Notes under the pieces: model-generated
Told to the model about the DNA's origin: nothing
Database searches by the model: none
The model's input: the letters and a program-made list of their open reading frames with translations, nothing else
Made by a program: the position numbers and the translations under genes
Source: Proteromonas lacertae
Lineage: Eukaryota
Assembly: GCA_002245135.1 (NCBI GenBank)
Contig: NGBS01000610.1
Coordinates: 56,496-76,495 of the forward strand
DNA length: 20,000 nt
Reading direction: 5' to 3'
In this document: positions 1 through 19,262 of the stretch, piece after piece
How positions within the stretch are numbered: position 1 is the stretch's first letter
Layout of the letters: the number at the start of each line of letters is the position of its first letter

Positions 1-2620
1 TACCATTTATCTCAACATTTACTTTAGTGTAGACATATTTCTCTTCAGTTTTTGGAGCATTTATTGTATATTTATAACCATCATAAACAAAAAGATCAGT
101 TTTTGCATTTTCACCTTTTATTTGATATCCAACTTCATTAGAATATATTGGTCTGATATTTTGAATTTCTACATCTTTATTAAACTTTATTCGATCTATT
201 TCACCCCAACCACCTGTTGCTTTATTCATTTCTTTAAATGTCAATTTATAAGAAACACTATTTAATCCACTCAAATCATTCAAATTTTTAATATAATCAC
301 CCATATCTGTTTCTACTGTCATTACTAAATCGTTTGGAACAACTCCTTTAAAATCTACAAATACATAGTCTATTTCAGTTAAATATAAAACTGGATAAAC
401 AAGCCATTCATCAGATTTAAGAGATACTGGATATAACATTGATCCAAATGAATATTTGTCATTTGGTATTGCAGCTGGAGACAGTTCTATTTCATTATTA
501 TCATTATATTCAAAAGCAACTCGATTTCCATTTTCATTATGATAAAGAACAAATGCATTATAATATGTCACTTTTCCATCTTTATCTTCAACTATTACAA
601 CTCCTTCAGCAAATCCATCAGTTTCAAATGCAGGTAATAACTCAATAAACGTTTTATCAACCACTTTTAATTCTCTTTTATTACCAAAGAAATCAGTTAC
701 ATAAGCTCTTCCACCTTCAGGTACAACTATATTACTACCATATATCAAATTATTAATTCCCAAATCTTCAACTGGAGAACTTGCATCATTCAATTTGGAT
801 CTTTTAACTGAAGCATATTGATAATTCTTTCTACCAAGACCTGAATAGTATTGTCCATCCATTGTTACTGTTATACATTTAGAGCCATTATCACCGTAAC
901 ATACTTTGGATTTTGACAAATCATTACCACTATATGAAACAATTACTTTTCTTCCTTTAACAAATTCATTTTTCTCTGTATATACTCGAGGAACATTCTT
1001 GTTTCGATTGTTTTCATTAACAATATAATACCAACCATTTGGTTTTGTTGATGGTTTGTTGCATGTATAACCACTTTCATCAGAATTCTTTTTACAGTTA
1101 TGAAAACTTGGAGAAAATTTTAAAGAAGGTAAACCACTTGGAGGAGTTGATGGAGGAGATGGTTTTTTGTTTGGATAACATTCTATCTCCACTTCAGCAT
1201 AACTTGCTTCATCATAGTTTCTCTTGTCTTCTTTCACTATTGCTTCTTCTAAACTCTCTTTCAACACTGACTTATAAATTTTAGTCACTCTAATTCTTAA
1301 TGTTCCAGTATCAAAATCAGATGGATAGTAATCAACTCCTGGTAATAATGAACTGTCAGCTAAAGAATTAATCTTGTCAATATTTGCATCTAAATAATTA
1401 CTGTATCTACTTCCACCAATTAACAGTCTTATTCCAAAGTCTTTAGCACTTTGAAGTGTTGGATTTTGTTTATATTCTAAGATCAATGTACCAGATGTTC
1501 CTGAAGTTCCTGTATATTTAGAGGTAAAACTGGTATTCACTAATATTCGAATAGATATACAGTTATATTTGAACGGAATTCCATCAAATACTTCTTCATC
1601 ATTGTGATATGATTCATTTTTACCTAAAAAGTATCTCGAATATGGATGATCATTTGCATAAATTCTATATTTATGAACTCCAGTTTCAATATCTTTGTAT
1701 TGCCACAGCTCTGGTCTGTTTTGTACTATTATTTCTCTATATTCAGAAGTTGGAACAGGATATTTCCATGAGTTACAATTACCCATATATGATCCACAAT
1801 CATTATAATTATCAACAACATCAAAATTATAGAAATTACCTGTTTTATCTACTGTCTTTATACCACTATGATCAAGTCCACAACTATGACCATACTCATG
1901 AATTAGTACTCTCACTCGAGTATTCTCAATATCATCACCAACTTCAATATTTCCTTTAGATATTAACCAAGAATTTTCATTTTTATTTGCAATTTTTGCT
2001 GGAGTTCCTGCTAGTGCCAGACCTGACCATGAAACAGGGAAAGTATCTGTAATATACCATTGAACTCCTACATTAGGAATTGGCTTAGTCTTTTTTGCTT
2101 CTTTTGACAATTCTAACATTAATTTCCAAATATTATCACTGTCATATAAAGCTCTACTTACTGATAGACAGTCACTAATATATAAATCATCTCCTTGATA
2201 TATTCTGATTTGATTGGCTGACCATAATCTCATTCCTAACTCCACATATTTCACATAACTTCTAATTCTATCTATAGAATAGCATATAGAAGGATTATCT
2301 TTATTAGCACCTCTCAATATAGCTACATGTAACATTGTGTTAAACATTGGCGAGTATGATCCAGTTGATAATTCGATTTTCGGTTCAGGTAAAGGAAAGA
2401 AGTGTAGAAGGGTTATTTCATGATCAATTATATCAAATGTGGCTATACCTTTACCAGCACGTAATTTGAACTCTTCTGAATTCATAACCTTATTTAAGTA
2501 ATCTTGTTTATATTTTAAATATACACCTCCATGAGTATCAAAAGCAGCATCTACGGTGGCATTAGTGATTCTTTCTCCACATATCACAGTAACAAACAAA
2601 AAGAATAAAAAAAAATTCAT
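1..2620 (-). CDS. Secreted metzincin zinc metalloprotease (M11/gametolysin-like motif spacing), intronless within the window, >=873 aa, 3' end outside the window
   Basis: Manual translation from ATG at 2620 is open to base 1; it is absent from the ORF track because there is no stop in the window. N-terminus MNFFLFFLFVTVICG looks like a signal peptide. HEYGHSCGLDH (1900..1868) matches HExxHxxGxxH. Downstream YNDCGSYMG is a candidate Met-turn. A Pro/Ser linker (PSPPSTPPSG) precedes a beta-rich C-terminal region. The M11 assignment is an inference. Confidence 0.88.
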   Translation of the reverse strand, partial: MNFFLFFLFVTVICGERITNATVDAAFDTHGGVYLKYKQDYLNKVMNSEEFKLRAGKGIATFDIIDHEITLLHFFPLPEPKIELSTGSYSPMFNTMLHVAILRGANKDNPSICYSIDRIRSYVKYVELGMRLWSANQIRIYQGDDLYISDCLSVSRALYDSDNIWKLMLELSKEAKKTKPIPNVGVQWYITDTFPVSWSGLALAGTPAKIANKNENSWLISKGNIEVGDDIENTRVRVLIHEYGHSCGLDHSGIKTVDKTGNFYNFDVVDNYNDCGSYMGNCNSWKYPVPTSEYREIIVQNRPELWQYKDIETGVHKYRIYANDHPYSRYFLGKNESYHNDEEVFDGIPFKYNCISIRILVNTSFTSKYTGTSGTSGTLILEYKQNPTLQSAKDFGIRLLIGGSRYSNYLDANIDKINSLADSSLLPGVDYYPSDFDTGTLRIRVTKIYKSVLKESLEEAIVKEDKRNYDEASYAEVEIECYPNKKPSPPSTPPSGLPSLKFSPSFHNCKKNSDESGYTCNKPSTKPNGWYYIVNENNRNKNVPRVYTEKNEFVKGRKVIVSYSGNDLSKSKVCYGDNGSKCITVTMDGQYYSGLGRKNYQYASVKRSKLNDASSPVEDLGINNLIYGSNIVVPEGGRAYVTDFFGNKRELKVVDKTFIELLPAFETDGFAEGVVIVEDKDGKVTYYNAFVLYHNENGNRVAFEYNDNNEIELSPAAIPNDKYSFGSMLYPVSLKSDEWLVYPVLYLTEIDYVFVDFKGVVPNDLVMTVETDMGDYIKNLNDLSGLNSVSYKLTFKEMNKATGGWGEIDRIKFNKDVEIQNIRPIYSNEVGYQIKGENAKTDLFVYDGYKYTINAPKTEEKYVYTKVNVEING

Positions 2621-4665: not shown

Positions 4666-6237
4666 ATGAGTGAAAACCCAGCTAAAAGAAGAAAAACTTC
4701 AGAAACAGAATCTGTAGAGCCATCCTCAATGATCATAACATTGAAAGGACCAGATGTATCAAACCATTTTTTAAAATCTTTATAGGGTGAGATAACAGGG
4801 CCACAAATGGATTTGCCATTATCCACAACGCCACAACAATTGGAACAACTATGTAATCAGTTATTAAACAATGAAGAATCAGTTCCATATGCTTTCTATG
4901 TAGGTGAAGATGAAATAATGACATCAATTCAGCAAATTGTCGATCAAAATGTATGTATATTCATTAAAATTAACATAAATAGAATATATCAACAGAAACT
5001 GTATTAGAAATAAGATATCAACCTCTGTCAATATTCCGTGTAATGCCTGTCACTCGTTGCACAGATACATTACCTGGTCATACAGAAGCAGTATTACATG
5101 TTTCATTTAGTCCAAATGGCAAAATCCTTGGTTCTGGAGGAGGTGATTGTGTAGTACGATTTTGGGATGTATATACATCAACTCCATTATTTGAATGTAA
5201 AGGACATAAAAATCACGTATTATCAACAGCTTGGTCTCCATCTGGACATTATTTCATTTCTGGTGATAGAAATGGAGCAATAATCGTATGGAACCCTAAA
5301 GCAGGTAAGAAGAAAAACCCTGTACTACTCGGACACAAAGGATATATCACTTATTTATGTTTTGAACCATTACATTTAAACAAAAAGTGTAATCGTTTTG
5401 CATCAAGTTCTAAAGATGCCACTGTTATTATATGGAATATTTCTACCATGTCTAAAGAATTTCTAATATCAGGTCATTCATCTTCGATTGAATGTGTGAA
5501 ATGGGGAGGAGAAGGATTGATTTATACAGCTTCTAGGGATAGAATTATTAGAGTATGGGATGCTGAAGAGAAAGGAAAACTGGTAAGAACCCTAGTGGGA
5601 CATGCACATAGAATTAATTCATTAGCTTTGAATACAGATTATATATTGAAAAGAGGTGGATATACACATGAAGATAAAGTATATAACAACAATAATATAA
5701 ACAATAATACGATAGATGAAGAAATGTATAATGATTCTGTAAAATTATATACAGAGTATATGAAAGGTAAAAATGAGTTGTTAGTAAGTTGTAGTGATGA
5801 TTTTACTCTTTATTTATGGAAGCCAACAATCGATAAACAGCCAATCTGTCGAATGACAGGACATCAACAGTTAGTTAATCATATATCATTTTCACCAGAT
5901 GGAAGATATATAGCAAGCGCTAGTTTTGATAAAAAAATAAAAATTTGGGATGGAACAACAGGTAAATTCATTAATACACTGACAGGTCATGTTGGTGCTG
6001 TATATCAAGTATGTTGGTCTGCGGATAGTAGATTATTAGCATCTGCATCAAAAGATAGTACTGTAAAGTTGTGGAAACCATCTAATTCTCATGCTTTCTG
6101 CACTTTACCAGGTCATGCTGATGAAGTATATACATTGGATTGGAGTGGTGATGGAGAAAGAGTAGCAAGTGGTAGTAAAGATAGAACTATAAAAATGTAT
6201 ATCATATTTATTTTTATTGAATAGATGGAGGCATTAG
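4666..6237 (+). CDS. NLE1: Notchless/Rsa4 WD40 ribosome assembly factor (60S biogenesis), about 493 aa, 3 introns
   Basis: Introns 4756-4785, 4951-4982 and 6197-6224. N-terminal NLE/UBL domain (QLEQLCNQLL...PYAFYV, YQPLSIFRVMPVTRC), WD40 repeats with SCSDDFTLYLW and RMTGHQQLVNHISFSPDGRYIASASFDK, and C-terminus IKIWRH*. Confidence 0.96.
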
Positions 6238-6397
6238 ACTAACTGTAAAGTGTTTTTTCTCGAAAATTATCTTTTTAGAATTTGTTATTTTTAATTATTA
6301 TTGAATATATGTTTAATACAGAAAAAAAGAAAAAATACACTAAAATATAGCCGTTTTGATTTTACAGTAGAGATTTTTTTGCTTTTTCTAATCAAAG

Positions 6398-7092
6398 ATG
6401 AGTGGTAAAGGTATATTGGTTTTTACAAATGAATAGAATTTTTAAAATGTATGAGTGGAATTAATCAAATGGGAAAAGTAATACAATCTAAGTATATTTT
6501 TTATTATGAGGATATATAGGGTAGATAAAATTAATATAAGATGCAATAAATTGAAAAAATTGTATCAAGCTGCTCCACAAGCATATAAGAAGACTTATGA
6601 AGATTTGATCAAACAACAGCTATTTCACTTGAAAAAATGAAAGAAATATTAACCAATATAAACAAATTATCTTCAACAATTGAAACATGTAATGAAAAAA
6701 TAAAAAATACAACAAAATTAAAATTAAAAGAATCAGAAATAAGCGAAATGGCAAAAGAAATTAATGTGGATGTAAAAACTTTTAATGCTACATATAGTAA
6801 GGTAAAAGACTTAGCTGAAGAAATTGATGGAAATATAAATGTGAATGTAGAAGGAGAGATGAATGAAGAATTTAACGAATTTATGAATAGTGAGGCAAGT
6901 GCTTCTGATGTTATTAACGATCCGACCAAATTAATGGAAGAAGCGAATAATATGTTAAGTTCTTTAGGAGTAAGTGGTATGTTACCAACAGAAGTTAATG
7001 ACCCTACTCCAGCGCTTGCAGCTGTTCCATCTGCAGTTCCAGAAACTAAACATGAAGAGAAGAAAGAAGTTGCAGTAGATTTTGACTATTAA
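6398..7092 (+). CDS. Coiled-coil paralog A (putative divergent ESCRT-III/Snf7-like), about 213 aa; needs one extra base near 6618
   Basis: Introns 6411-6436 and 6492-6519. The frame breaks at aaacaaca^gctatt; adding one A gives LIKQQAISLEKMKE. Basic helical N-half, acidic C-half and a Pro-rich tail. IQSKVDKIN resembles IQSKIEKLN of paralog F. Confidence 0.65.
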
Positions 7093-7260
7093 TTGATTAG
7101 AAATTGTTTATTGATAGTTTATTATTTTTATGTAAAATATGTATTTGTTTATGTTAATAATTTGATTGATATAAAGCATTTTAAAGAGAAAAACAACCAT
7201 AATATTCTAATATATTCAAATTACAATATACATAAATAATTCACAAAAAATGACTAATAC

Positions 7261-7839
7261 TTATGTCTTCATAGCTATACCTTGAATTGGTGGGAGATGA
7301 CCAGCTGTTTAATATAATATAACATAATATATACGCTGTTCTGGAATATTTGTTGAGATTCTTCTTGGACTTAATATTCTTGACTTTCTAGGAGTCATCC
7401 ATGCAGCAGCAGGTGGTAAAACATCGCTTTCATTTATCATAGGTATTAATTCTATTGGTCTATTGGCTCTAACAGGTTGATATCTTGGTGATCTTCTAAA
7501 TAAACTAACTATATTATAATTATACATAGGGGATTTACTCAAATTAACATTATTATATCTCGGAGAATGTTTGGGTATTGGCGAAGGATTTTTCTTTCTA
7601 TCATTTTCAAATTTTTGTAATATTGGTAAATACTGGATATAAAAAAATAAAGATACTTTAGATCCTTCCGTAGAACATTTATTTCTAAGCCAAGCTTCAT
7701 AATGATCTTTATCTCGATTTACATAACTAATTCAATTAAATGAACACATATACTAGTCTTCTCTTTGAATATTATTGGCTACAAACTGAGAAGAACGATT
7801 GTCATATGTTGTATGGGAAATAATTCCTGTATGTAACAT
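7261..7839 (-). CDS. Small basic SP/TP-rich hypothetical protein (gene B), about 155 aa
   Basis: ATG at 7839. Introns 7727-7753 and 7305-7334 are required for frame; 7633-7656 and 7496-7525 are in-frame and probable. Ends HLPPIQGIAMKT*. Several SPR/TPRK motifs; no family recognised. Confidence 0.65.
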
Positions 7840-7895
7840 ATTAAATAAAAAAAGAAAAAAAAACTGATTGAAAATCTATCCGTTTCAAATTTAAA

Positions 7896-8464
7896 ATGTA
7901 AGTTTTTTCTTTTTTAATCGTTAATAGGAGTAAAATATCAGCAGCAGATGCTATAAAATCAAATAATGAGAAGTATAAGGATGATAAAACAAAGTATATT
8001 TAGTTTTTACACTAGTTCAAAGAGCATCTGATAGTTATTTTGATATAATATACAATGAAAAGTTAATCAAGAAAAATCCAAATGATCCACAGAAAGTATT
8101 GTGGGAAACAAAAATAGCTGATCAAAGATCAGCATTTGTAAGGTCAAAAGAAAATGCTAAAAAGGTAATCAATAATATGGGGGTTGTGTATGAGATAGAG
8201 TATAAATTTTGATTGTATTATAAAAATAGTGATAAAAAAGAATTGTTAGATGCAATGAAAAAATACTGTGATGAAATTGATGAAGTAATGAAGTATATTT
8301 AATATTTGATGATTATATGTAATAGAGAATTTCGTGACTTACAAAAAAGTGATGATAAGAATAAAGATGTAATAGAAGGAATAATGAGTGATGTACAAGA
8401 AGGAACTGATGCAATGAACGAATTATTGAATATACAAATGAATGAAGAAGTAGAATATAATTAA
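7896..8464 (+). CDS. Coiled-coil paralog C, about 148 aa, 4 introns, start codon split by an intron
   Basis: AT|intron 7898-7927|G. Further introns 7994-8022 (AAG acceptor), 8200-8229 and 8293-8325, with a 63-nt exon at 8230-8292. Protein MSKISAADAIKS...KDVIEGIMSDVQEGTDAMNELLNIQMNEEVEYN*. Confidence 0.7.
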
Positions 8465-8473
8465 TCACTGTAT

Positions 8474-9129
8474 TTATGCTGTTTCTAATGCTTTTACTCT
8501 TTGTGGTTGTGCTGCAGCTGGTGCTATTGTATCTGTGACATTTAAATTAGCCATTAAAGCAGCAATGTTGAAATCAGCAGCTTCTTCTGGTTTATCTGAT
8601 AAAACTGCTGTATTTTCTGTTCTTTCCATTTCTGTACTAAGTTCTTGAATTTGTTCAGAATTCTCTTGTATTTCATCCAACAATTTGTCTAATTCTTGAT
8701 CAACCTTTTGTTGTTTTCTCAATTCTCTATTTTAACGTATTTTATATAAAATAAACATACTCTAATATCGGTTGAACATTAGTGATGTATTGTTCATTAA
8801 CATCTGTGAAAACTTGTTGATCTCTGAATTATTAAGGAATTTAACAAGTATAAAAATCAAAAATGATATAATAGCTGTTGAGCTGTACACATCATTTTAT
8901 GTATCCTTGGTAATTCAGTCTGTATTTTCTTTAATTTATCTATGTTAGCATTGATAGCATTTTGAGCATTTGCATCTGGATTTGGATTTTTTGCAAGTAT
9001 ATTTTGAAGTAATTTCTGAGTATTTCTGTATCTAATCAAATATAAAAACTAAAAATACTCTTCCATCTTTCCATCGAACGTCTTTTTAAGTTCTGCATAC
9101 TTTGATTCTTTATCCACAGGAACAGACAT
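8474..9129 (-). CDS. Coiled-coil paralog D (Snf7/Vps20-like features), about 182 aa, with an AT-AG U12-like intron
   Basis: Introns 9032-9058 (GT-AG), 8824-8869 (ATATCATTT...TTCCTTAAT AATTCAG) and 8727-8760 (GT-AG), with a 63-nt exon at 8761-8823. LDKLLDEIQENSEQIQELS resembles ESCRT-III helix 4. Confidence 0.75.
8824..8869 (-). other. U12-like intron with AT-AG termini (46 nt)
   Basis: Contains an in-frame TGA so it must be removed. Donor ATATCATTTT; branch-point-like TTCCTTAAT is followed by 7 nt ending in CAG. Removal restores the frame (QQLL|DQQVF). Confidence 0.75.
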
Positions 9130-9204
9130 CGTGTAAACAAAATATCAAGTTTTAAAAATCAAAAAAGGTTTGAAAAGCTTGATCTTTCTTTTCTTGATAT
9201 TTTA

Positions 9205-9735
9205 ATGCCTACTCAACAACCACCACCAGTGAATAAAGCTCAGAAACTAGTTCAACAAATTCAATTATTAGAAGAAAATGTAAACCAAAAACTTGACAGG
9301 TATAAAATTTACACTAGTCTCTTGTTATAGACTTGATAAAATCGATGTTGGCATGATTGCTTTAGCTAAAGAAGTAAAACAACCGAATATAACAAAACAA
9401 AAGCAAGATGAGATCGTTCGTCAAATCCAAAGACTTGATATACAAAGAAAAGAAACACAAAAAGGTTTAGTGAATGATATGAATAATTTAACTGCTTTAG
9501 AAAAGGTCCAATATCTTTTTTTAACTAACATCACACATTTTTACACCTTAATTGTATTTAATAACAATTACAATTATGCATTTGCATGCAAAAAGTTTAC
9601 AGAGATAGGCGCATCACTTAAAGAGTATTAATGTTTTCTCTTCTATATTTTAGTGAATTAATCCTTATACAAAAAGCTTCAGAGTTTGCTGAAAGAATAA
9701 ACCAACATACTGAAGCACTTGATGCTGATGTATAG
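9205..9735 (+). CDS. Coiled-coil paralog E, about 139 aa, with an AT-AA U12-like intron
   Basis: Introns 9300-9330, 9511-9561 and 9625-9653; internal exons of 180 and 63 nt. Aligns ungapped with F: KLVQQIQLLEENVNQKLDRL/KIYNQMQVLETNIQSKIEKL and QKGLVNDMNNLTALEKV/QKGLIIDYNTLSSIERI. Confidence 0.75.
9511..9561 (+). other. U12-like intron with probable AT-AA termini (51 nt, in-frame, no stop)
   Basis: Donor ATATCTTTTT and branch-point-like ACCTTAAT (9545-9552). An acceptor at 9561 yields the same 63-nt next exon as C and D. The nearby AC at 9564-9565 is out of frame. Confidence 0.62.
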
Positions 9736-9811
9736 TAATATTAACTAAATATATATCGATTATTATGTGTTTTTGTTATGTTATTTTCGAAATAAGTTTG
9801 ATTCTTGTTTG

Positions 9812-10317
9812 ATGTCCAAATTCTCAAAAAGTGAAAACTACTACTCTGATACTAAAACAGATTCTCCTGTAAAAAATGAAGAAAAAATATATAATCAAAT
9901 GCAAGTTTTAGAAACAAATATACAATCAAAAATTGAAAAGTATATAAACTTAAGATATTATATAATAGACTAAATGATATTTACTTAGAAAAAGTAAAAT
10001 ATGAGAAGACTTGCTTATCAGAAGACAGTACCAAAGAAATTAGAGATAATGCTAAAGAATGCATTTTTAAGCTTGAAAATATGAAAAATGAAGTGCAGAA
10101 AGGATTAATTATAGATTATAATACTCTTAGTTCTATAGAAAGGATATTATATCATTTTTTTACTTTTTGTTTAATCTGTTAGAATTTTTAATATACTATC
10201 GATGATTATATCGTTTCTAAAGTATGTGGAGAGATTTCTATTCTATGCTTAGATTTTAATGAGTATATATATATATATTAAATTTGATATAGAAATATGA
10301 ATAGTTCAAAGGTATAA
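9812..10317 (+). CDS. Coiled-coil paralog F, about 131 aa, with an AT-AT (or AT-AC) U12-like intron
   Basis: Introns 9940-9968, 10149-10199 (or -10196) and 10263-10292; internal exons of 180 and 63 nt. Clear similarity to E. The 3' end at GTA TAA is uncertain because it could be another donor. Confidence 0.72.
10149..10199 (+). other. U12-like intron with AT-AT (51 nt) or AT-AC (48 nt) termini
   Basis: Donor TT|ATATCATTTT is identical to that of D. In-frame TAG at 10180 forces removal, and the nearby GT/AG pairs do not restore the frame. Branch-like TTTTTAAT at 10185-10192. Confidence 0.7.
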
Positions 10318-10756
10318 AATGTTGAATATGATGTTGTTAATGGTGCTCTACCTCTAATTAGTTTTTTTACTTAATTAACTTTTTTATCAAATTAAACACA
10401 TGATATATTCATTATTTACATATTTTTGGAAAGTAAATTTCTGTTAATCAGTATAAAGGATGAATAATATGAATGAAAAAACAGTCGGATATTTTCAAAT
10501 TCTAATTGATTATATTAAACATCATGTATTCGAAAAGTAGAATTCATAAAAGCGATGCTTTTCAGAATAATGTGAAAAATCAAGTTCAAATTTTCAAAAA
10601 TACTTCCGGCTTGAAAATTTTGCACCATTAAATCTTTTCGTTTATTTTAATTCATATTTCTTAAACTTCTTCACGTTTTGTTTAAATATTTAAAGTCAAT
10701 AATATATATTCAGTTTAATTGTTATTTATTATATATGAATACATACTTCTAATACC

Positions 10757-17900: not shown

Positions 17901-19262
17901 CTTTTATATTATTAAGAAAGGAAAAGTGGATATTATCTATACATCCAAAGGTGAAAAGACTTTATTAAAAACATGTGGTCCAAATGATGCTTTAGGTGAA
18001 TTATCAATTATCAATGGAACAACTTATTCAGCATCAGCAATAGCAACTACAGAAACAGTTGAATGTATGGCTTTAGATAGTGTTTCGTTTTTAAATTACG
18101 TTGGTCCTTATATTGGTACAATCGGTGAAGCAGCTAGAAAGAGAGATATGGATACTTATGTTGATTTATTGTCACAATTGAATTCTTTAATACATTACCA
18201 CATGATGAAATAGTGAAGATTGCTAATGTTTGTCATCCTAAAACATTCCATGATAAGGAATATCTTACTAAAGAAGGTGAAACTGGTCAGAATTTAGATT
18301 TCTTTGTAATTATCAGTGGACAGGTTAGAATTACTAAAAGTATTGATTTAGAAAATACAATTACAATGTTATCAAATGGTGATTATTTAGGTGAAAAAGC
18401 ATTATTTACAGGTAATCCAAGAAATGCAAATGCCATAGCCGTTGGTTTAGTGGAAACATTATCATTAGAAAGATCTGATTTTGATTTATACTTAAAAGAT
18501 CATTTGTTGAAATATTTAGGTGAAAATGATAAGACTGAAGTTATAAATAGTAGCAGAGGATTGCAAGATAGTGGAATAGCAAAACCAATCAATTCATATA
18601 CACAGCAACTAAAAACAAGAAGATTAAGTGAACAAAAACCATTAGAAATTCAACAACCTGTAATTAAACCACCAATAAGGAATACATTAGCAAATATTCC
18701 AGAAACACCTGAAGAAGATGACGAAGAAGGAGGAGGTGGAGGAGATGTGGATGATGAAGAAGTAGATCATGCATCTAATCCAAGTTACTTTAGTGATGAA
18801 GAATTACAAATAGAAAATGAAAATGATATAGAAATATTTGAATCATGTCAGGGTTAAAGAAATCACATTATATCATATTAAAAGTATTATCAGGACCATT
18901 AAGACAAGCAATATATGTTATGGAAGGAGATTTAATTACAATTGGTACTGGAGTATGTACAATATCTATAAATGATTCATCATTGAATTCTTTACATTGT
19001 TCAATAGAATATAGAGAAAATGGATATTGGCTATCAGATTCTGATAGTGATAGTGGAACATTTTTACAATTAGGTTAGGTTTAGCTTTTCCTGTTCAAGT
19101 TGGTGATTCATTCAGATTAGTAATACAGAATTAACCATTTTAGGTAAAACAAAGACAATTGAGAAATCAACTGTTATTCAAGAACCACCACCTCGTAGTC
19201 AAAATAGTGTGATTAATATTCCACCAATATACACTCCAGGTCCTTGTTGTGAAGTTATGTAA
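14988..19262 (+). CDS. Casein kinase 1 fused to FHA x3, cNMP-binding x2, a fourth FHA and a C-terminal CCEVM; about 1336 aa after 8 introns and 5 single-base corrections
   Basis: Introns 14997-15029, 15186-15214, 15288-15318, 15648-15681, 16349-16394, 16624-16660, 17148-17178 and 17481-17508. CK1 motifs: GSGSFGE, VAIKCE, HRDLKPEN, IDFGLSK, TGTARY, EQSRRDDLESLGY. FHA-like: HARL..LQDNKSETGTF, IIGRSEDN..SDRHA, HCSI..LSDSDSDSGTF. cNMP: LGELSII and YLGEKALFTGNPRNA. Confidence 0.82.

What the first reader, a model, noticed from the sequence alone, without database searches (positions are those of the whole stretch)
8200..10262. One homologous intron in five states across tandem paralogs: U12-like AT-AG, AT-AA and AT-AT/AC, U2 GT-AG, and absent
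Seen in sequence: paralogs C, D, E and F each have a phase-2 intron before a 63-nt exon (8230-8292, 8761-8823, 9562-9624, 10200-10262). In D it is ATATCATTT...TTCCTTAAT.AATTCAG (46 nt), in E ATATCTTTT...ACCTTAAT.TGTATTTAA (51 nt), and in F ATATCATTT...TTTTTAAT.ATACTAT (51 nt). In C it is a plain 30-nt GT-AG intron, and A lacks it. D and F carry in-frame stops, so splicing is obligatory. Established: minor-spliceosome introns use an RTATCCTT donor and a TCCTTAAC branch point and tolerate odd terminal dinucleotides. Inference: the 3' site here is set by distance from the branch point rather than by the dinucleotide, and the cluster captures U12-to-U2 conversion and intron loss side by side.
Basis: partly seen in the sequence, partly recalled or inferred. 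Interest (0 to 1): 0.9.

Follow-up and report, generated by a model that had tools for sequence, protein, structure and literature searches.

The report
Odd-ended minor introns in Blastocystis relative
Three neighbouring genes of what is probably a Blastocystis-like gut protist carry introns with the signals of the rare "minor" splicing machine and likely end in AG, AA and AT, endings already listed for Blastocystis, so the only unusual feature is a start signal that differs from the textbook one at one letter.

Summary
The coordinates, lengths and motifs check out. D, E and F each have an AT-starting, 46-51-nt segment with a branch motif, against GT-AG introns of median 30 nt. Fourteen read-through ortholog proteins of E keep the donor, and 12 of them stop inside the segment, so it is an intron. 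The host groups with Blastocystis. The odd ends are not new. In the RNA-corrected ST1 intron table, 90 of 336 ATATCC introns read by eye end AC 58, AG 25, AA 5 and AT 2, all 6-9 nt after the branch A. That yardstick fits D (AG, 8 nt) and favours AT over AC in F. E's AA lies at 10 nt. Distance-set acceptors, AT-AN introns, and U12-to-U2 change or loss among paralogs are published. The shared position is firm for E-F, moderate for C-D and across pairs, and weak for A; direction of change is unresolved. What remains unusual is donor +6 = A (D, F, 14 of 14 E orthologs), against 0 in the ST1 table. No RNA or genome was available.

The parts
8824..8869 (-). Gene D test intron, 46 nt, phase 2, AT-AG; donor ATATCATTT, branch A at 8832, 8 nt from the 3' end
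   Evidence: 3n+1 with a stop, so removal is obligatory
9511..9561 (+). Gene E test intron, 51 nt, phase 2, AT-AA; donor ATATCTTTT, branch A at 9551, 10 nt from the 3' end (in-frame AA alternatives end 9564 and 9567)
   Evidence: orthologs
10149..10199 (+). Gene F test intron, 51 nt, phase 2, likely AT-AT (AT-AC option ends 10196); donor ATATCATTT, weak branch motif with A at 10191
   Evidence: in-frame stops; spacing compared
8200..8229 (+). Gene C intron at the matching site, 30 nt, GT-AG, ordinary major type, no CCTTNA motif
8230..8292 (+). 63-nt exon of C
8761..8823 (-). 63-nt exon of D
9562..9624 (+). 63-nt exon of E
   Evidence: 16 of 21 codons identical in P0001 and P0004
10200..10262 (+). 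63-nt exon of F
   Evidence: ungapped register with E
7896..8464 (+). Gene C, 148 aa, exons 7896-7897, 7928-7993, 8023-8199, 8230-8292, 8326-8464
8474..9129 (-). Gene D, 182 aa, exons 9129-9059, 9031-8870, 8823-8761, 8726-8474; last exon weakly Snf7-like
   Evidence: Pfam Snf7 E=0.0069, below the curated cut-off
9205..9736 (+). Gene E, 139 aa, exons 9205-9299, 9331-9510, 9562-9624, 9654-9730s
   Evidence: orthologs at 73% identity
9812..10320 (+). Gene F, 131 aa, exons 9812-9939, 9969-10148, 10200-10262, 10293 to an early stop near 10319
   Evidence: E-F z=18
6398..7092 (+). Gene A, likely distant paralog; no intron at the best-matching codon (about 6691) nor 63 nt later; frame break near 6637

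Best explanation
D, E and F carry AT-starting introns with minor-type signals that are likely removed by the minor spliceosome of a probable Blastocystis relative, likely ending AG, AA and AT, at a site that is probably shared with an ordinary GT-AG intron in C and possibly empty in A. Mechanism: U11/U12 would read the donor ATATC(A/T)TT and a (C/T)(C/T)TTAAT branch motif, and cleavage would fall after an A-N dinucleotide a short fixed distance beyond the branch A (8, 10 and 8 nt here; 6-9 nt in ST1), so the last letter can drift. History (inferred): one ancestral AT-type intron. Because major donors here begin GTAT (24 of 25), an AT-AG form like D's is one A-to-G change plus shortening away from C's intron. 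A lost the intron or never had it. Shown: sequence, frames, ortholog conservation, ST1 comparison. Inferred: spliceosome, exact junctions, shared position across pairs, direction.
For: D and F cannot be read through; every GT, GC or GA..AG alternative that restores frame in D, E or F is 37 nt or longer, and each either removes conserved codons, has a donor unlike GTAT, or keeps part of the segment. In 14 of 14 E-ortholog proteins (3 clusters) the read-through continues Q-Y-H-F, which fixes donor +5 C and +6 A. Twelve of 14 stop within 4 or 13 codons; 11 of these end P-stop or S-stop, which fits a CCTTAA-type branch motif. The 2 open ones keep 32 of 40 upstream and 16 of 21 downstream residues but 2 of 7 in the segment's middle, and have N (AA-) at the acceptor codon. 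0 of 25 GT-AG introns carry C(C/T)TTNA; their median is 30 nt. The window's NLE1 groups with Blastocystis sp. Blastoise, support 0.87. ST1 has 346 minor introns, four minor snRNAs and seven specific proteins (PMC5608401). ST1 ends and spacing. Register anchored on the intron: offset 0 ranks 1 of 51 for E-F, C-E, D-F and for C+D against E+F summed (z 2.4), 2 for C-D and 3 for D-E.
Against: No junction read and no snRNA gene was seen for this organism. Donors miss the consensus at +6 (A, T, A), where ST1 has C 336, T 3, A 0. E's 10-nt spacing is outside the ST1 sample (0 of 90; maximum 9) and passes an out-of-frame AT at 6 nt. F's branch motif is weak. C-F ranks 17 of 51 in the register test, and pairwise scores between C or D and E or F are weak (z 0.3-2.8). 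The register test at the first shared intron ranks first for only 1 of 10 pairs. The tree supports only E+F (94.8/82); the AU test rejects no quartet. Three frame breaks in the window suggest assembly indels, and D's and F's ends have no independent copy. The host rests on one gene with moderate support.
Confidence: 0.72

Rival explanations
1. The AT introns are real minor introns, but they are not one homologous site: E/F and C/D/A are separate coiled-coil families, or the same family with introns at nearby but different codons, and the shared 63-nt phase-2 layout is partly the reader's choice.
For: Weak pairwise scores between pairs; C-F rank 17 of 51; no shared Pfam, PDB-sequence or fold hit; exon length in E and F not independently fixed.
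Against: Offset 0 is best for the summed C+D against E+F test and for C-E and D-F. All four genes share three phase-2 introns spaced 54-60 and 21 codons apart. D and F share the same rare ATATCATTT donor.
Confidence: 0.15
2. The major spliceosome removes these segments, either through AT-AG/AN ends that mimic this genome's GTAT donors, or through nearby GC-AG or GT-AG sites (D 8875-8824, 52 nt; E 9554-9595; F 10169-10222).
For: Donors fail the minor consensus at +6; ATAT differs from GTAT by one letter; GC-AG and GA-AG introns exist in Blastocystis; no minor snRNA is shown for this organism.
Against: Lengths of 46-51 nt and branch motifs match the ST1 minor class, not the 30-nt major class. 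E's GT at 9554 is absent in the orthologs, where the codon is I or K, and its use would delete conserved residues.
Confidence: 0.08
3. The direction is the reverse, or both types were gained: C keeps an ancestral major intron and the minor form arose in the D/E/F line, as part of a recent gain of minor introns in Blastocystis.
For: The tree is unrooted and unresolved. Larue and Roy raise recent gain of minor introns in Blastocystis (PMC10639083 passage). No CHMP gene appears in the human/mouse minor-intron supplements (0 hits in 8 files), so, if these are ESCRT-III genes, the site is not known as ancient.
Against: U2-to-U12 change is described as highly unlikely, with one known case (PMC3584512 passage). 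D and E/F lie on opposite sides of the only supported split.
Confidence: 0.12
4. Assembly errors or decaying gene copies produce the odd ends.
For: Three unexplained frame breaks in 20 kb; F ends early.
Against: E's donor and its AA acceptor codon recur in independent ortholog proteins; the same ends occur in RNA-corrected ST1 data.
Confidence: 0.05

Closest known systems
Minor (U12-type) introns of Blastocystis sp. ST1 (Gentekaki et al. 2017, PMC5608401, text and S11 data; Larue and Roy 2023, PMC10639083)
   Same: AT start, longer than the 30-nt major introns, short branch-to-end distance, A at the second-last position, ends AC, AG, AA and AT all present (58, 25, 5, 2 of 90 rows read).
   Different: Donor +6 is A or T here against C in 336 of 339 ST1 rows; spacing 8, 10, 8 nt against a mode of 6; length 46-51 against mostly 37-44; the organism is about 28% GC and has no annotated genome in the searched sets.
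A-type (AT-AN) minor introns of human (de Wolf et al. 2021, PMC8280824; Turunen et al. 2013, PMC3584512)
   Same: AT-AA, AT-AG and AT-AT ends; 3' site constrained by distance from the branch site.
   Different: Optimum there is 11-13 nt, and AT-AG is described as disfavoured. ATATCA occurs once and GTATCA four times in the human/mouse table, against 352 ATATCC and 959 GTATCC.
Non-canonical minor introns of Physarum polycephalum (Larue et al., bioRxiv 10.1101/2020.10.12.336362)
   Same: AT-AG 29%, AT-AA 27% and AT-AT 8% of non-canonical minor introns; paralog pairs scored as U12, U2 or no intron; a splice signal changed together with its snRNA.
   Different: There the changed signal is the branch motif (TTTGA, matched by U12) and +6 is C or T; here the branch motif is near standard and the donor +6 differs.
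U12-to-U2 conversion and loss (Burge et al. 1998 as cited in Lin et al. 2010, PMC2831892)
   Same: Minor, major and absent states at one codon position and phase.
   Different: The published route runs through a GT-AG minor stage; here an AT-AG form sits beside the GT-AG major form in paralogs of one cluster, with no GT-type minor stage seen.
Snf7/ESCRT-III family (PF03357)
   Same: Size, helical make-up, and a weak hit of D's last exon to profile positions 98-157, collinear with its place in the protein.
   Different: Below cut-off; no hit for A, C, E or F; the resemblance of the other genes is recalled, not shown.

Membership tests
U12-type intron, A-type | 5' site RTATCCTT | tested here: not met
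   +1 to +5 and +7/+8 match in 3 of 3, but +6 is A (D, F) or T (E), never C; A in 14 of 14 E orthologs. Hence filed as a variant.
U12-type intron, A-type | TCCTTAAC-like branch motif close to the 3' end | tested here: met
   D TTCCTTAAT, E ACCTTAAT, F only TTTTTAAT (ST1 has such weak cases); absent from 25 of 25 GT-AG introns.
U12-type intron, A-type | A-N end at a fixed short distance from the branch A | tested here: met
   8 nt in D and F, inside the ST1 range of 6-9; 10 nt in E, just outside, or 6 nt from a weaker motif.
U12-type intron, A-type | Removed from the transcript at these junctions | tested here: inconclusive
   Removal is obligatory by frame in D, F and 12 of 14 E orthologs; exact junctions need RNA, which could not be examined.
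U12-type intron, A-type | U11, U12, U4atac and U6atac present in the genome; splicing depends on them | not testable with these tools
   No genome held; none in the window; present in ST1 and ST7.
Homologous intron position | Same codon and phase in alignable sequence | tested here: inconclusive
   Met for E-F (z 4.9), supportive for C-D, C-E, D-E and D-F, not for C-F; A's best summed site is intron-free but its scores are low. The common rule of 4 in 10 identical flanking residues is not met across pairs.
U2-type intron (gene C) | GT-AG, about 30 nt, GTAT donor, no minor branch motif | tested here: met
Snf7/ESCRT-III | PF03357 match or ESCRT-III fold | tested here: inconclusive
   E=0.0069 for one exon; nothing in PDB sequence searches; model of the E read-through is a short plus a long helix with no fold match.

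The most novel reading that the evidence does not exclude
This Blastocystis-related lineage has shifted its minor donor genome-wide to ATATCATT, with matching changes in U11 and U6atac, and tolerates AT-AG well enough that a single A-to-G change hands a minor intron to the major spliceosome, a direct AT-AG bridge caught in paralogs D and C.
Probability: 0.3. Interest if true: 0.65.

Novelty: new variant of a known kind. Interest (0 to 1): 0.4.

Why it matters
The headline features are known, so the cluster is mainly a compact example. Two points have some value. First, donor +6 is almost always C in ST1 and in mammals; a lineage with A there would be a second natural case, after Physarum's branch site, of a minor splice signal changing with its snRNA, and is easy to test once the genome is in hand. 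Second, reviews treat AT-AG as a poor intermediate that limits conversion, yet 25 of 90 ST1 rows read end AT-AG, and here an AT-AG intron lies beside a GT-AG major intron at what is probably the same site. Blastocystis is therefore a good place to test conversion without a GT-type minor stage. In practice, gene finders limited to GT/GC-AG and AT-AC will get these genes wrong.

Tried and rejected
No whole genome is held, so no genome-wide donor count or snRNA search was possible. No RNA holder was listed for 6300-10400. Scans for E-like loci found none in metagenome contigs or prokaryote genomes, so ortholog introns were read only through their translated read-through, which cannot tell A from G at +1. 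The homolog search with D exon 2 found none. The representative search gave only P0001, P0003 and one unrelated long protein. The protein atlas gave no answer. Pfam, PDB sequence and fold searches did not establish the family. Rfam found no snRNA in the window. No other convincing AT intron was found in the window: hits at 5883 and 16946 lie in open coding frames, and most of the rest are on the non-coding strand; 18962 was not resolved. Rejected: AT-AC for E (no in-frame AC after the branch motif until 9600); AT-AG for F at 10182 (out of frame); retention of E as the main form (stops in 12 of 14 orthologs). Dietrich et al. 2001 and Incorvaia and Padgett 1998 are not held. The search for ESCRT-III accessions in the ST1 supplements reached only part of the files, so ST1 orthologs were not checked. 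Literature searches (listings only) showed no paper on a +6 A minor donor in Blastocystis; subscription journals and bioRxiv supplements were not searchable and may bear on this.

Full report
Observation. I rebuilt the gene models from the sequence. C, D, E and F each have three phase-2 introns in the same order, the second and third 63 nt apart. The second is a 30-nt GT-AG intron in C (8200-8229) and an AT-starting segment in D (8824-8869, minus strand, 46 nt), E (9511-9561, 51 nt) and F (10149-10199, 51 nt). D is 3n+1 with a stop, F has in-frame stops, E is open. The 25 GT-AG introns I picked out in the window by eye have a median of 30 nt (26-46; the 46 is an AT repeat); 24 start GTAT and none has a C(C/T)TTNA motif. 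The AT segments are therefore a separate class by length and signal. The relaxed motif alone is weak in this AT-rich DNA (6 against 3.2 expected in the window; 3 against 0.4 in the cluster).

Independent copies. A search with the E read-through frame found 3 clusters at 73% identity, 14 proteins in all. They are genomic read-throughs, so they show the intron in translation. All 14 continue Q-Y-H-F, which fixes donor +5 as C and +6 as A but leaves +1 open. Twelve stop inside the segment; 11 of them end in P-stop or S-stop, which fits a CCTTAA-type branch motif one base out of the window's frame. P0001 and P0004 read through the same number of codons as the window. They keep 32 of 40 upstream residues, 16 of 21 downstream residues and the codons over the branch motif, but only 2 of 7 in the middle, and they have N at the acceptor codon, meaning AA. 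This excludes retention as the main form and the GT alternatives at 9506 and 9554, and makes an assembly error unlikely for E's AA. No such copies were found for D; F was not searched.

Host. No genome is held. Among 119 of the top 120 NLE1 hits (one fused record dropped), the window's protein groups with two unnamed close relatives and then with Blastocystis sp. Blastoise, support 0.87. With 30-nt introns, this points to Blastocystis or a close relative, on one gene. ST1 has 346 minor introns, four minor snRNAs and seven specific proteins (PMC5608401, section 8 and S1 table).

The right yardstick. The same paper's S11 data list the ST1 introns, corrected by RNA-seq (the file is cut in the ST7 sheet, the ST1 sheet is whole). 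Introns starting ATATCC number 336, ATATCT 3 and ATATCA 0; ATATCG was not searched. I read three consecutive blocks, 90 of 336 rows, by eye. Ends: AC 58, AG 25, AA 5, AT 2. Distance from branch A to the end: 6 nt 54, 7 nt 31, 8 nt 4, 9 nt 1, none at 5 or less or at 10. Five rows pass an AG or AC at 5 nt. A further 30 partly overlapping rows agree. The three ATATCT rows end AC, AA and AG. On this rule the first A-N at 6 nt or more is D's AG (8 nt) and F's AT (8 nt), and both restore the frame; F's AC lies at 5 nt. E does not fit as neatly: the first A-N is an out-of-frame AT at 6 nt, the in-frame AA is at 10 nt, and a weaker motif gives AA at 6 nt (57-nt intron). E is AT-AA either way; the ungapped match to F favours 51 nt.

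Shared position and direction. E-F are clear paralogs (z=18), C-D (5.0) and D-A (4.6) are moderate, and the rest are weak. Anchored on the intron, offset 0 ranks 1 of 51 for E-F, C-E, D-F and the summed C+D against E+F test (z 2.4), 2 for C-D, 3 for D-E and 17 for C-F. A's best summed site (about 6691) has no intron. The tree supports only E+F, and no topology is rejected. A minor ancestor is the simpler reading because D and E/F straddle that split and the reverse change is described as very rare (PMC3584512, passages). Recent gain has, however, been raised for Blastocystis (PMC10639083, passages). The proteins may be ESCRT-III subunits, but only D's last exon gives a weak Snf7 hit; a model of E and the fold search were uninformative. 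No CHMP gene is in the human/mouse minor-intron supplements (PMC6717393, supplement search).

Mechanism. Most likely the minor spliceosome binds donor and branch motif together and cuts after an A-N a fixed short distance on, so the last base is free to drift. Since major donors here start GTAT, an AT-AG intron like D's needs one A-to-G change and shortening to become C's intron. The spliceosome, the junctions and this path are inferred.

What is known. AT-AN minor introns are a named class in human (PMC8280824, passages). The distance rule is reviewed. AT-AA and AT-AT are the commonest odd ends in animals (PMC10639083, section 30). Physarum has AT-AG, AT-AA and AT-AT introns and paralog pairs in U12, U2 and absent states (bioRxiv 10.1101/2020.10.12.336362, passages; supplements closed). 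Conversion and loss at shared positions date from Burge et al. as cited in PMC2831892 (passages). PMC12129017, PMC8199999, PMC7367187 and PMC2846911 were seen as passages only and added no more than context. Dietrich 2001 could not be read.

What is left. Donor +6 is A in D, F and all 14 E orthologs and T in the window's E. ST1 has 0 of 339 with A; the human/mouse table has ATATCA once and GTATCA four times against 352 ATATCC and 959 GTATCC. D and E/F are far too diverged for neutral intron letters to persist by chance alone, which hints at selection, but all copies belong to one intron position, so a genome-wide shift is untested. An unchecked note on another genome describes a like case with a variant U6atac.

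Verdict. A real feature and a variant of a known kind; interest 0.4.

Noticed in passing
window 6630-6640, about 18180-18190, about 18850-18856: Three frame breaks in coding sequence with no intron to explain them, at least the first at an A run; likely assembly indels.
   Followed up: partly
window about 7250-7840, minus strand: Small gene between A and C, rich in SP/TP sites; it recalls the C-terminal part of retinoblastoma-family proteins (recalled; Pfam gave no such hit). It holds an in-frame 24-nt GTATCTTT..AG stretch at 7656 that is probably coding.
   Followed up: partly
window 7896-7929: Gene C has a GT-AG intron inside its start codon (AT|G).
   Followed up: no
window 8455-8480: C and D converge with stop codons about 10 nt apart, so their 3' ends must overlap.
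   Followed up: no
PMC5608401 supplement 32, ST1 sheet: AT-AG makes up 25 of 90 AT-type rows read, although the text says 'typically AT-AC'. The 9 GTATCCTT rows seen (of 75) are 29-33 nt with no clear minor branch motif, so GT-type minor introns may be scarce in ST1.
   Followed up: partly
window 9511-9561; P0001, P0004: The E intron is 3n and stop-free in the window and in one ortholog cluster, so a retained form with 17 extra residues would be translatable there.
   Followed up: no
window 4756-4785: The only GT-AG intron of 25 with C at +5 (GTATCA start), 30 nt, in the NLE1 gene; could be a converted minor intron or chance.
   Followed up: no
window 1-2620, minus strand: Large, apparently intronless gene with an N-terminal hydrophobic leader, probably a surface or secreted protein.
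   Followed up: no
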